Source: Pseudobacteroides sp.
GTDB lineage: Bacteria; Bacillota; Clostridia; Acetivibrionales; DSM-2933
DNA length: 64,000 nt
NCBI GenBank assembly: GCA_035370245.1
Contig: DAOOVO010000002.1
Coordinates: 1 to 64,000, forward strand
Direction of reading: 5' to 3'
The notes below the pieces were generated by a model. That model did not search any database and was not told the origin of the DNA. It was given only the letters and a program-made list of their open reading frames with translations. This document shows, piece after piece, positions 38,041 to 40,562 of this stretch (position 1 is the first letter of the stretch; each line of letters begins with the position of its first letter). A program made the translations under genes and the position numbers.

Positions 38041-40562
38041 TTATTCAGTTTGCATATAACCAAATTTTCGTGCCAGTTTTATTATATCCGACATATTAAC
38101 GGTACCGTCTAAGTTTATGTCACATTTCTTATCAAAGCCTTCATCATTCTTAGTTAAGCCAAATACTTTAGCTATAAGAACAACGTCAGCCATGTTAACC
38201 GACCCGTCCTTATTGATATCTTCAATAATTGATTCATTTATTAGCTCTGAAACATCAAGATAATATGTAACCCATGACAATGCTGCATTTAAATTTATTT
38301 TTACTTCATTGGTAGACCAGGATTCCACATCATCTACATAACATTTCTGTGCTGGTGCACGATTTTCTCTTAGCTTTCTAGCAATTTCATCCTGACATCC
38401 CGAGTTTGGCCCACCTGTTAGAAAACCTGGCGGTACCGGAGGAAATGACTCGTCATACTGATTACAGAAAAACCTATGGTGAGGATTCTTTAACGTATTT
38501 TCTCCATATCCCGACACATATGACTTAATCATTGGATTACGTCCTAAAAGATAATCCATGCACTCAACCATTCCGTTAAAATACTTTTCATCACCGCATA
38601 ATTCATATGCATACGCCATTACAATTGCTTTATTAATAATATAAGAGTTGGAATCTATTGGATATCCTGTTATTCTATCATCATTACCGAAAAATTTATC
38701 AATATACTCAGTTTCAACTAAGGGTATCCTATAACCTTCTTTTTCCTGTATCTCAATACAGTCATCTGCTGCCTCCCTTATACTTGCAACTGCTTGAGGG
38801 AACTCCTGCCCCTTATGAAGAGCAAGTGTAAGAGTGCCCAATCCCCCTGTAGCACATCTGTCAAAGCACCCGCTCAAACCTTCAAATTCACCTGTAAGTA
38901 CAACGGGCATCTTTTGGCTTTCCTCATAACCTTCAAGATCTGTAAGATATTCTTCTTCTCCGGTTGTAACATACAATTCACAAGCGGCCCAGTAGAAGTC
39001 ATCTTCAACATAGTTATCGCCATATGATAATGAACCTTTCTCAGCACTATATGGATAGAATATTGCCGGATTTGCCTTGGCAGCCTCGTAGGCTCTCTTG
39101 GAAGCATTCAAACATTTAGCGGAAAATTCAGCATCAATGTCTTTCCATATGCGTGCAGCCTGGGCAGCACATGCAGCTAGATTTAGTGTTGCCGCTGTTG
39201 TGGGAGCATAGTATAACCTTTTCTCGGTATCCTGATCAGGGCGGATCGCCAATGAAGTCCAATTTTCATCTCCCACCTTATGGATTGCCATCCCTGCTCT
39301 GTCATATCCTTCAGGAATTTGCATCTTAAGCATCCATTCCATTTCCCAGCGTGTCTCATCAAGTAAATCGTTAATTTTGTTTCCGCTCTCAGGAATATTC
39401 AGCCTACCGTCACCAAAAATATCATCTACACCGTATTTTTTACTGTGCTCATATTGGTTCTGAAGTATCCACAAGGTTAAACCGCCATTTACCATATACT
39501 TGCCATGGTCTCCCGCATCATACCAGCCACCGGTAGCATCAATGCTTTTAGGCCCTGTATAGTCTTTCACAGAGGCAGGTACAACTATATCTTCTTTATG
39601 TCCTGCCGGCCTGGACCAAACACTCTCCACACAGTACGGCATTTTTATCTCCAAACCGCTTCTTGCATGATAAAAATATTTCAGTGCATCATACTTCATA
39701 TTTGTATATATATATCAGTTCCTATGTCAAATGGAAAACTTTCAGCATTTCCTGCTACCAGATAGTAATCTTTACCAGGTATTGTATAGCTGGAAAAATC
39801 GATTATTTGAACATATTCACCTGCTGCATGGTCTGGTCCAAATACTGTTGTATTTCCGGAAGCAACAACATTTCCATCCTTATCCATTAAGTCCCATTTT
39901 TGAGGTTCTCCTGGGGTGCCATAAACCTTCAAAACAGCCTTTTTTGTTGCATTAGGAAGATACCCCAACTGATTGACACGGATATCCTTAACAAGCGGTG
40001 TTGCCGTGGGATTTGGTGTACGACATGTATAATCATCCAATGACATGGATATAAACTTAACTTCAATCGGTAGAGATAGAGAATTTATCAGCTCTCCCCC
40101 AAGCTGGAAAGCAAACTCAGCATCTTTATATGTTTTGTCAGCAATAAAAGTATCTTCCACTGTAAATACCTCGCCAGCTTTAATAGAAAATGTATTTCAT
40201 TTGTTATTCCAAACTTCTTCATATGGCTCACCGACGTCACCTATTTTTACATAAATCTTGGTATCCTTATCGGCTGTTACAGAGAATTTAACTCTATACT
40301 GGTAGCCCGAATAAATGGTTAAATCTCTGTGTCTTATCTGTACATCCCTTCTATTAGTGCCCTTGTTATCGATATGAACAACAAAATTTCCATCCTTGAT
40401 AGAGGCAGTAGCATTAGCTTCATCAGATTGGCTCAATTGCCAAGGCAGACTTACACCTCTTTTAAAATCTGTTGTTTGAAGCATTTCTGCTGCATTGCAT
40501 GATACCTTTAACACAAGCATCACCAGAAACGTCAAGCCCATTACAACTAACTTTTTATACAT
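38041..40562 (-). pseudogene. family-9 glycoside hydrolase (signal peptide-CBM-Ig-GH9-dockerin) disrupted by an in-frame TGA and a (TA)n frameshift
   Basis: three consecutive ORFs: SP+CBM-like (40197-40562), Ig-like (39696-40160), GH9 catalytic 'GGWYDAGDHGKY' ... 'WSTNEVKINLNAA' plus type-I dockerin (38041-39699); ORF1 and ORF2 are in the same frame, separated by TGA at 40197-40199; ORF2/ORF3 frames differ across (TA)5. Confidence 0.7.
39705..39715. repeat. (TA)5T dinucleotide run at the Ig/GH9 frame break
   Basis: removing one TA unit fuses the Ig and catalytic ORFs, giving '...[22 protein letters not shown]...'. Confidence 0.6.

What the first reader, a model, noticed from the sequence alone, without database searches (positions are those of the whole stretch)
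38041..40562. GH9 cellulase gene inactivated by an in-frame TGA and by a (TA)n slipped-strand frameshift
Three adjacent minus-strand ORFs together encode signal peptide + CBM-like domain, an Ig-like domain, and a complete GH9 catalytic domain ('GGWYDAGDHGKY', catalytic Glu region 'WSTNEVKINLNAA') with a type-I dockerin. ORF1 and ORF2 are in the same frame and separated only by TGA (40197-40199), with the open frame continuing through the 12 intervening codons. ORF2 and ORF3 overlap (ATATGAAG) right after a (TA)5T run (39705-39715). Deleting one TA unit joins them to give '...[25 protein letters not shown]...', a natural GH9 N-terminus. This is either a decaying pseudogene with two lesions or a contingency-type phase-variable cellulosomal gene, unless both lesions are sequencing errors. 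Dinucleotide slippage in a cellulosomal gene would be notable.
Basis: seen in the sequence. Interest (0 to 1): 0.6.

Follow-up and report, generated by a model that had tools for sequence, protein, structure and literature searches.

The report
Broken cellulase allele, not a switch
This is a cellulose-degrading enzyme gene of an uncultured Pseudobacteroides bacterium that is broken by two real, inherited mutations, while most other strains of the same species still carry the intact gene, so it is an ordinary decaying gene copy rather than an on/off switch.

Summary
Three minus-strand ORFs form one CBM4–Ig–GH9–dockerin cellulase (CelK/CbhA type), broken by TGA at 40197-40199 and by an extra TA unit at 39705-39714.

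Neither lesion is a sequencing error. (TA)5 occurs in nine independent metagenome assemblies and TGA in at least five. An intact 839-aa allele (TGG, (TA)4) sits at the same syntenic site on about 31 contigs, against about 14 null contigs. The sister-species ortholog is intact with (TA)4, so (TA)5 is a derived insertion.

Phase variation is not supported:
- The tract has only 4 or 5 units, and only those two states were seen.
- (TA)5 is perfectly linked to a SNP 115 bp away (9/9 against 0/17).
- (TA)5 alleles carry two different second nonsense mutations (W122* here, a GAA→TAA stop elsewhere).
- Paralogs keep the peptide but not the TA run.

Haplotypes indicate that TGA arose separately on a (TA)4 background. 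The window allele is most simply a recombinant of two null alleles. Within-species changes in this gene are mostly nonsynonymous. A deleted tandem paralog lies next door.

Verdict: a segregating pseudogene of a highly redundant cellulosomal family. The dockerin looks type II, not type I.

The parts
40197..40562 (-). ORF1: signal peptide (MYKKLVVMGLTFLVMLVLKVSCNA|AE, by inspection) and the first ~95 residues of a CBM4 module. It ends in the premature TGA.
   Evidence: Pfam CBM_4_9 at 8.7e-12, profile positions 2-101 of 136. A Shine-Dalgarno sequence AAGGGGGA lies at 40569-40576.
40197..40199 (-). Nonsense codon TGA at codon 122. It is TGG (Trp) in intact alleles and TAT (Tyr) in the sister species. 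It is a G-to-A transition at 40197.
   Evidence: Alignment; allele table; sister species. TGA is a normal stop in 10 of 42 long ORFs of the window.
39699..40196 (-). Open frame continuing from ORF1: the rest of CBM4 and the Ig-like CelD_N module (about 39741-39986). It ends 'TDIYIQI*' after the frameshift.
   Evidence: CelD_N 1.2e-23. PDB 3K4Z (CBM4-Ig) matches residues 27-286 of the intact allele.
39705..39714 (.). (TA)5 run. The intact alleles and the sister-species ortholog have (TA)4, encoding D-I-Y-T (GAT ATA TAT ACA). The extra TA unit causes the frameshift.
38041..39699 (-). ORF3: GH9 catalytic module (about 38269-39693) and dockerin (about 38065-38223). It has no signal peptide and no Shine-Dalgarno sequence of its own. 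Its ATG overlaps the ORF2 stop (ATGA).
   Evidence: Alignment to CbhA 1UT9/1RQ5 keeps the DAGD motif and the catalytic Glu. The upstream sequence is visible.
38388..38388 (-). Site of a third, independent lesion found in other (TA)5 alleles but not in this window: GAA to TAA at ORF3 codon 438. It splits the gene into ORFs of 288, 437 and 95 aa.
   Evidence: L107-L109.
39830..39830 (-). Marker SNP (C = His, T = Tyr), 115 bp from the TA run and in complete linkage with it.
   Evidence: All 9 (TA)5 contigs carry C and all 17 (TA)4 contigs carry T. On the first 20 contigs, Fisher p = 6e-5.
40887..41141 (-). 84-aa ORF: the C-terminal tip of a GH9 module plus the dockerin of a deleted tandem paralog. 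A short CBM4 fragment sits just upstream of it.
   Evidence: It is present in all strain contigs. The sister species has a remnant with different deletion endpoints.
40622..40649 (-). Promoter-like site TTGGGA-16-TATAAT upstream of ORF1. This is a consensus match only. The upstream region 40710-40845 is 85% identical to 41185-41325, upstream of the remnant, which points to a tandem duplication that included the promoter.

Best explanation
The window carries a non-functional allele of a single-copy-locus cellulosomal cellulase gene. The architecture is signal peptide–CBM4–Ig-like–GH9–dockerin, the CelK/CbhA type. The organism is an uncultured Pseudobacteroides species.

Two ordinary, heritable mutations disable the gene.
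- Insertion of one TA unit in a short (TA)4 run. That run is only the by-product of the codons GAT-ATA-TAT-ACA. The event was probably a single replication slippage.
- A TGG→TGA nonsense mutation at codon 122.

The two mutations arose independently on different haplotypes. In the window allele they were most simply brought together by recombination.

Both are segregating loss-of-function polymorphisms. About two thirds of assembled contigs of the species still have the intact 839-aa gene. A third null mutation (GAA→TAA) exists on other (TA)5 alleles.

Inferred consequences (not shown): the broken allele can at best yield a secreted fragment of the CBM4 module without a dockerin, and perhaps a little cytoplasmic GH9–dockerin without a signal peptide or Ig module. 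It therefore adds no cellulosomal activity. The loss is tolerated because the genus holds dozens of paralogous GH9 enzymes that turn over by tandem duplication and decay.
For: Shown by tool results:
- Lesions and domains.
- An intact allele, P0001 (839 aa, 99% identical), sits at the same syntenic position on at least 18 contigs. Further intact variants exist.
- (TA)5 is present in nine independent assemblies: the window's own contig (L001), L002, L003, L096, L097 and L107-L110. TGA is present in L001, L091, L092, L096 and L097.
- The sister-species ortholog (79% aa identity, same synteny) is intact and has (TA)4.
- (TA)5 always goes with C at 39830 and (TA)4 always with T (Fisher p = 6e-5 on the first 20 contigs).
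- (TA)5 alleles carry two different secondary nonsense mutations, W122* in the window and GAA→TAA at 38388 in L107-L109, plus private nonsynonymous changes.
- The haplotype chain L004 → L111/L112 (Val105) → L091 (Val105, TGA, Phe133), all on a (TA)4 background, shows that TGA arose on a (TA)4 gene.
- Within the species the gene has 7 nonsynonymous plus 1 nonsense against 3 synonymous polymorphisms. Five neighbouring genes have 6 against 20 (Fisher p = 0.008).
- Between species, dN/dS is 0.32 for this gene and 0.04-0.07 for radA, disA and tyrS. The gene was functional but only weakly constrained.
- Paralogs keep the peptide D[IM]Y[ST][11 protein letters not shown] without a TA run.
- A remnant of a deleted tandem paralog lies next door. 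Tandem arrays and another decayed copy occur in related genomes.
- P. cellulosolvens has 40 GH9 genes, 14 of them with CBM4 (PMC5590126).
- TGA is a normal stop in this window.
Against: - All population data are consensus contigs from metagenomes. Some mosaic haplotypes (L091, L092, possibly the window type) could be assembly chimeras rather than true recombinants, so the order of events is inferred.
- No reads were available, so low-level length heterogeneity of the TA run within a strain cannot be excluded.
- Polymorphism counts are small (11 sites in the gene).
- The neighbouring helicase gene also shows a high nonsynonymous share (18 against 8), so the excess is not unique to this gene.
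- The loss of function itself is inferred from the missing signal peptide, dockerin and Ig linkage, not measured.
- Redundancy within this very genome was not demonstrated. It was shown only for the genus.
Confidence: 0.85

Rival explanations
1. Contingency locus: the (TA)n run is a hypermutable repeat that switches this cellulosomal enzyme on ((TA)4) and off ((TA)5) reversibly and at high frequency.
For: The frameshift is exactly one repeat unit, and both lengths exist in nature at the same locus. All four combinations of TGA/TGG with (TA)4/(TA)5 occur, which recurrent slippage could in principle produce. The (TA)4 run is conserved in the sister species.
Against: - The tract has 4 or 5 units, below the six-or-more cut-off for dinucleotide repeats, and even tracts at that cut-off may be too stable for efficient switching (PMC6321876).
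- Only two lengths were seen in 26 contigs.
- Linkage to a SNP 115 bp away is complete.
- Every four-gamete violation is explained by a single crossover, and the contigs are mosaic over the whole 14 kb.
- OFF alleles carry additional nonsense mutations, which is not expected if the OFF state were kept reversible by selection.
- Paralogs encode the same peptide without the repeat.
- It is the only such run in 64 kb and is not enriched.
Confidence: 0.04
2. Assembly or sequencing artefacts: the true gene is a single intact ~840-aa ORF, and both lesions are errors.
Against: The same (TA)5 is found in nine assemblies from different samples, assemblers and data sources (JGI, NCBI, Logan). The same TGA is found in five. 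Each lesion travels with its own linked SNPs. That marks real lineages, not random errors.
Confidence: 0.02
3. Recoding: the gene is expressed whole, through TGA read-through or selenocysteine and a programmed -1 ribosomal frameshift or transcriptional slippage at the TA run.
For: The frame stays open through the 12 codons after TGA. The ORF2 stop overlaps the ORF3 start (ATGA), so some coupled re-initiation of ORF3 is conceivable.
Against: - Both lesions are derived and absent from most alleles and from the ortholog.
- There is no X XXY YYZ slippery heptamer at GAT ATA TAT ATA CAA ATA TGA.
- No Rfam family, SECIS elements included, reaches threshold anywhere in the window.
- TGA replaces Trp, not Cys, and is a regular stop in 10 of 42 ORFs.
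- There is no Shine-Dalgarno sequence before the ORF3 ATG.
- A re-initiated ORF3 product would lack the signal peptide.
Confidence: 0.02
4. Selected loss: null alleles of this particular enzyme are favoured, for example by saving cost or by using neighbours' cellulases in digesters. That would explain three independent knock-outs at appreciable frequency.
For: There are three independent null mutations in one gene within one species. About 14 of 45 contigs are null. A neighbouring paralog was deleted independently in two species.
Against: The same pattern follows from plain relaxed constraint on a redundant gene. The nonsynonymous to synonymous ratio is near neutral, not beyond it. Intact alleles remain the majority. 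Contig counts are not independent population samples, and no frequency trajectories are available.
Confidence: 0.12

Closest known systems
Clostridium (Acetivibrio) thermocellum CbhA / CelK (Cel9K), CBM4–Ig–GH9 cellulosomal cellobiohydrolases
   Same: The N-terminal module order is the same: CBM4, Ig-like CelD_N, GH9, with a dockerin at the end. The Ig–GH9 part matches PDB 1UT9/1RQ5 at about 1e-154 and the CBM4–Ig part matches 3K4Z. The DAGD motif is kept. The catalytic Glu (the residue changed to Gln in 1RQ5) and the junction peptide DIYTxMKYDAL are conserved.
   Different: This copy is broken in the window. It lacks the extra X1/CBM3 modules of CbhA. Its dockerin carries the type II signature typical of Pseudobacteroides enzymes. 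Whether it acts as an exo- or endoglucanase was not tested.
The tandem CBM4–Ig–GH9–dockerin gene arrays of Pseudobacteroides cellulosolvens (40 GH9 genes, 14 with CBM4)
   Same: These are the closest cultured relatives, at 60-69% identity, with the same architecture. The genes sit in tandem arrays of 3-5 copies. The window locus is a decayed two-copy array.
   Different: The window gene sits alone among housekeeping genes (radA-disA-tyrS ... helicase). One copy is deleted and the other is segregating null alleles.
Simple-sequence-repeat contingency loci (Haemophilus, Neisseria, Campylobacter)
   Same: An intragenic repeat gained one unit and shifted the frame, and both lengths occur in the species.
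   Different: The tract is too short (4 or 5 units, against the six-or-more cut-off). There is no sign of repeated or reversible change. It is fully linked to a flanking SNP. OFF alleles decay further. The repeat is incidental to codon choice.

Membership tests
Glycoside hydrolase family 9, CelK/CbhA-type modular cellulase | GH9 catalytic domain detectable by profile | tested here: met
   PF00759 at 3e-94, covering profile positions 6-443 of 444.
Glycoside hydrolase family 9, CelK/CbhA-type modular cellulase | Catalytic residues: the Asp pair in the DAGD motif and the catalytic Glu in the C-terminal NE motif | tested here: met
   GGWYDAGDHGKY aligns to the same motif in CbhA. The Glu of WSTNEVK aligns to the residue that is Gln in the inactive mutant structure 1RQ5.
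Glycoside hydrolase family 9, CelK/CbhA-type modular cellulase | N-terminal CBM4 followed by the Ig-like CelD_N module directly before GH9 | tested here: met
   PF02018 and PF02927. PDB 3K4Z matches residues 27-286.
Glycoside hydrolase family 9, CelK/CbhA-type modular cellulase | One uninterrupted reading frame from signal peptide to dockerin, meaning a functional gene | tested here: not met
   TGA at codon 122 and a +2 frameshift at the TA run. The frame is intact in other strains.
Cellulosomal enzyme (dockerin-bearing) | C-terminal dockerin with two Ca-binding repeats | tested here: met
   PF00404 at 7.4e-9. The repeats are DINKDGSVNMAD and DINLDGTVNMSD.
   Both repeats have Met10, Ala17, Phe20 and Gly21, the signature reported for type II enzyme dockerins of P. 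cellulosolvens (PMC5590126). This rests on sequence pattern only. Cohesin binding was not tested.
SSR-mediated phase-variable (contingency) locus | Repeat tract long enough to be hypermutable (six or more dinucleotide units in PhasomeIt) | tested here: not met
   (TA)4 or (TA)5 only. Cut-off taken from PMC6321876.
SSR-mediated phase-variable (contingency) locus | Tract length varies independently of the flanking haplotype (recurrent, reversible change) | tested here: not met
   Linkage to the SNP at 39830 is complete in 26 contigs.
SSR-mediated phase-variable (contingency) locus | OFF alleles are otherwise intact | tested here: not met
   (TA)5 alleles carry W122* or a GAA→TAA stop at 38388.
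SSR-mediated phase-variable (contingency) locus | Length heterogeneity within one clone or sample (read level) | not testable with these tools
   No reads are available. Both metagenome-contig scans returned nothing.
Programmed recoding (-1 frameshift, or stop-codon read-through/selenocysteine) | Slippery heptamer or recoding signal, with the interruption conserved in orthologs | tested here: not met
   There is no X XXY YYZ motif at the site. No Rfam hit was found. The ortholog and most alleles are uninterrupted.
Pseudogene (segregating null allele) | Disabling lesions that are derived relative to intact alleles and the ortholog, inherited across samples, with further lesions and relaxed constraint | tested here: met
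.

The most novel reading that the evidence does not exclude
One specific cellulosomal CBM4–Ig–GH9 enzyme is being knocked out repeatedly within a single uncultured Pseudobacteroides species in anaerobic reactors. The three independent null mutations are a TA insertion, W122* and a Glu→stop change. The null alleles are then shuffled by recombination. On this reading, loss of the enzyme is favoured by selection (cost saving or reliance on neighbours' enzymes) rather than merely tolerated. A weaker variant is that the short TA run acts as a low-rate mutational hot spot that repeatedly seeds such losses.
Probability: 0.12. Interest if true: 0.45.

Novelty: new member of a known kind. Interest (0 to 1): 0.2.

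Why it matters
It matters little beyond annotation and local population genetics.
- Public records list this locus as three separate proteins (HOV24856-HOV24858). They should be one pseudogene, or one 839-aa gene in other strains.
- The case shows how to tell a one-off slippage mutation from a real phase-variable repeat using only public assemblies: linkage to nearby SNPs, secondary lesions, and the ortholog state.
- It documents birth-and-death turnover of redundant GH9 cellulosomal genes inside a species. That is relevant when gene counts from metagenome-assembled genomes are used to predict cellulolytic capacity.

Tried and rejected
- Two scans of metagenome contigs, one with a variable-gap pattern around the TA run and one with the fixed downstream flank, returned nothing. 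That collection evidently lacks these samples. Allele mining was done through exact-protein look-ups instead, all 12 of which are now used.
- The genome-contig scan did not return the species itself. It returned only P. cellulosolvens and other relatives at 69% identity or less, so the organism name rests on NCBI's label for the identical ORF products.
- A first regular expression for the junction peptide was wrong and found nothing. It was corrected.
- The Rfam scan of the whole window found no family at gathering score, so there is no support for SECIS or other recoding RNAs.
- The promoter and terminator scan gave no more sites than shuffled sequence. The promoter listed under parts is only a consensus match.
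- Considered and rejected: an alternative genetic code with TGA read as Trp, programmed frameshifting, assembly error, and phase variation. The reasons are given under the rival explanations.
- Not attempted: structure prediction, which was unnecessary given the strong matches to Pfam and to solved PDB structures (CbhA).
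Full report
**1. The observation**

On the minus strand of the window there are three adjacent ORFs.
- ORF1 is 40197-40562 (121 aa) and ends in TGA.
- ORF2 follows in the same frame. The frame is open from 40196, and the listed ORF (39696-40160) starts at a GTG twelve codons after the TGA.
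- ORF3 is 38041-39699 (552 aa). Its ATG overlaps the ORF2 stop (ATGA).

Pfam finds the following.
- CBM_4_9 in ORF1, cut off at profile position 101 of 136.
- CelD_N (the Ig-like module) in ORF2.
- Glyco_hydro_9 (3e-94) plus a dockerin in ORF3.

TATATATATA lies at 39705-39714. It is the only such run in the 64-kb window, but this is not significant: 0.27 are expected, and 20 of 100 shuffles have at least one. Removing one TA unit and reading TGA as TGG gives an 839-aa protein.

**2. Are the lesions real?**

An exact-sequence look-up of the 552-aa ORF3 product found it in independent assemblies.
- L001 (JGI 3300009710) is identical to the window at every variable site and is probably its source.
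- L002 (NCBI GCA_030154545.1) and L003 (JGI 3300021843) have the same (TA)5 but TGG at codon 122.

Further look-ups added more null alleles.
- L096 and L097 (two SRA runs) have both lesions plus a private Ser→Leu change.
- L091 and L092 have TGA with (TA)4, giving a 705-aa ORF.
- L107-L110 (four more JGI samples) have (TA)5. L107-L109 also carry a new GAA→TAA stop at window position 38388; L110 ends before that site.

So (TA)5 occurs in nine assemblies and TGA in five, from different samples and pipelines. Sequencing error is excluded.

**3. The intact gene exists**

The repaired protein hits P0001 (839 aa, 99% identity, full length). P0001 is encoded at the same syntenic position, radA–disA–tyrS–84-aa dockerin ORF–gene–helicase–MatE, on at least 18 contigs. 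Four more intact variants are known. The junction reads ...[27 protein letters not shown], exactly as predicted.

Rough tally by contigs: 31 intact against 14 null. These contigs are not independent samples.

NCBI labels the identical ORF products as 'MAG TPA: Pseudobacteroides sp.'. The closest cultured relatives are paralogs in P. cellulosolvens, at 69% identity or less.

**4. Polarity**

A sister species has an intact 838-aa ortholog in the same gene order (79% aa identity, dS about 0.4; L103 and L104). Its DNA at the site is the same, GATATATATACAAAT, which is (TA)4. (TA)4 is therefore ancestral and (TA)5 is a derived one-unit insertion. Codon 122 is TAT in the sister species, TGG in intact alleles and TGA in the window.

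In paralogs from P. cellulosolvens and related MAGs the peptide D[IM]Y[ST][11 protein letters not shown] is conserved, but the DNA is GATATGTAT..., GATATTTAT... and similar. The TA run is thus a by-product of the codons GAT-ATA-TAT-ACA, not a maintained repeat.

**5. Phase variation or a single mutation?**

I aligned 20 distinct contigs over about 14 kb and the gene region of eight more.
- Only two tract lengths occur.
- Every (TA)5 contig (9) has C at 39830, 115 bp away. Every (TA)4 contig (17) has T (Fisher p = 6e-5 on the first 20).
- Sites further apart are freely reshuffled and the whole region is mosaic. The tight coupling therefore says the TA state is inherited like a SNP, not switched.
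- The (TA)5 clade has since picked up two different nonsense mutations, W122* and a Glu→stop change at 38388. It also has private nonsynonymous changes (R→S, S→L). This is what a dead gene does. It is not what a reversible OFF state does.
- The tract is also below the six-or-more dinucleotide cut-off used to nominate phase-variable loci. Even tracts at that cut-off may be too stable for efficient switching (PMC6321876).

**6. How the window allele arose**

Three haplotypes form a mutation chain on an unchanged (TA)4/T-39830 background: L004 (Ala105, TGG, Leu133), then L111/L112 (Val105, TGG, Leu133), then L091 (Val105, TGA, Phe133). TGA therefore most likely arose on a gene with (TA)4, as an independent knock-out.

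The window allele carries the Val-TGA-Phe block joined to the C-39830/(TA)5 block. It is explained by one crossover between 40166 and 39830. L092 is explained by one crossover downstream of the TA run.

These could also be assembly chimeras. However, the window-type haplotype recurs in three samples, in two of them with a private mutation, which argues that it is real. This step is inference.

**7. Selection**

Between species, dN/dS is 0.32 for this gene against 0.04-0.07 for radA, disA and tyrS. The gene was functional but loosely constrained.

Within the species the gene has 7 nonsynonymous plus 1 nonsense against 3 synonymous polymorphisms. The totals for tyrS, disA, radA, MatE and GT2 together are 6 against 20 (Fisher p = 0.008). 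This fits relaxed constraint. The counts are too small to claim positive selection for loss.

**8. Context of decay and redundancy**

The 84-aa ORF at 40887-41141 is the GH9 C-terminal tip plus the dockerin of a tandem paralog that was gutted by deletion. A short CBM4 fragment survives just upstream of it. The sister species has a remnant with different endpoints: signal peptide and 95 aa of CBM4 fused to PPGFLSGGPNSG and the dockerin. About 140 bp of upstream sequence is duplicated, which indicates a tandem duplication that included the promoter.

P. cellulosolvens loci hold 3-5 such genes in tandem. Another Pseudobacteroides MAG has an intact copy next to a decayed one. P. cellulosolvens has 40 GH9 genes, 33 with a dockerin and 14 with CBM4 (PMC5590126). 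Loss of one copy is therefore plausibly harmless. This is inferred for this species, not shown.

**9. What the protein is**

The Ig–GH9 part matches the C. thermocellum CbhA structures 1UT9 and 1RQ5 at about 1e-154, and the CBM4–Ig part matches 3K4Z. The DAGD motif is kept. The catalytic Glu, which is Gln in the 1RQ5 mutant, is also kept.

The dockerin repeats (DINKDGSVNMADVVLIAKVFG and DINLDGTVNMSDIIKLARKFG) have Met10, Ala17, Phe20 and Gly21. That is the type II signature of enzyme dockerins in this genus.

**10. Function of the broken allele (inferred)**

ORF1 would give a secreted 121-aa CBM4 fragment. In TGG/(TA)5 alleles a 288-aa CBM4–Ig protein without a dockerin would be made.

ORF3 has no Shine-Dalgarno sequence and no signal peptide. 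Any product re-initiated at the ATGA overlap would stay in the cytoplasm.

Recoding is unlikely for four reasons.
- There is no slippery heptamer at the site.
- There is no Rfam hit in the window.
- TGA terminates 10 of 42 long ORFs.
- The interruptions are absent from the ortholog.

**11. Verdict**

This is a real, doubly disabled allele of a CelK/CbhA-type cellulosomal GH9 gene, segregating alongside the intact gene in an uncultured Pseudobacteroides species. The TA insertion was a one-off event, not a contingency switch. It is ordinary gene decay in a highly redundant family.

The mildly notable point is that three independent null mutations have arisen in one gene and have been combined by recombination. 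Interest is low (0.2).

Noticed in passing
window 40887-41325 (-); L103 7130-8000: There is a remnant of a second, tandem CBM4–Ig–GH9–dockerin gene between tyrS and the studied gene. The window keeps a short CBM4 fragment fused to the GH9 C-terminal tip and the dockerin (84-aa ORF). The sister species keeps the signal peptide and 95 aa of CBM4 fused to PPGFLSGGPNSG and the dockerin. The two species therefore had different internal deletions. About 140 bp upstream of both copies is 85% identical (41185-41325 against 40710-40845).
   Followed up: partly
window 33238-37965 (-): A 1575-aa protein with DUF4011, AAA_11/AAA_12 helicase, MTES_1575 restriction-endonuclease-like and DUF3320 domains lies directly downstream. 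Within the species it has 18 nonsynonymous against 8 synonymous polymorphic codons, strongly mosaic haplotypes, and one codon with three alleles (ACC/ATT/CTC at 35542-35544). This may reflect diversifying selection on a defence-type gene.
   Followed up: no
L107-L109, equivalent to window 38388: Other (TA)5 alleles of the same gene carry a further GAA→TAA nonsense mutation. It splits the GH9 part into ORFs of 437 aa and 95 aa. It was seen in three JGI samples; a fourth, L110, ends before the site.
   Followed up: yes
L106 5339-6248 (GCA_036567765.1, another Pseudobacteroides MAG): An intact 843-aa CBM4–Ig–GH9–dockerin gene is followed by a decayed copy (a 242-aa CBM4+Ig ORF and a 63-aa dockerin ORF). 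It is the same kind of internal-deletion remnant as in the window.
   Followed up: no
L019 (P. cellulosolvens NZ_LGTC01000001.1, 4247531-4266068); also L014, L017: The junction peptide motif occurs five times at a spacing of about 2.6 kb in one 18-kb locus, and three times in each of two others. These are tandem arrays of this gene type.
   Followed up: partly
window 42550-42673, and the whole window: No Rfam family reaches its gathering score anywhere in the 64 kb. That includes the region upstream of tyrS, where many Bacillota have a T-box leader. The disA-tyrS gap is only 124 bp here but about 420 bp in the sister species (L103 5483-5905).
   Followed up: no
window 45390-46643 (+): The glycosyltransferase family 2 gene next to radA is called as 410 aa in some strain contigs and 417 aa in others. 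This suggests a polymorphism at its start or end.
   Followed up: no
window 12476-20421 (-): A run of co-oriented large ORFs includes a DUF5682 protein (761 aa, 1e-138) and a HEAT-repeat-like protein (627 aa). Their function is unknown and was not examined.
   Followed up: no
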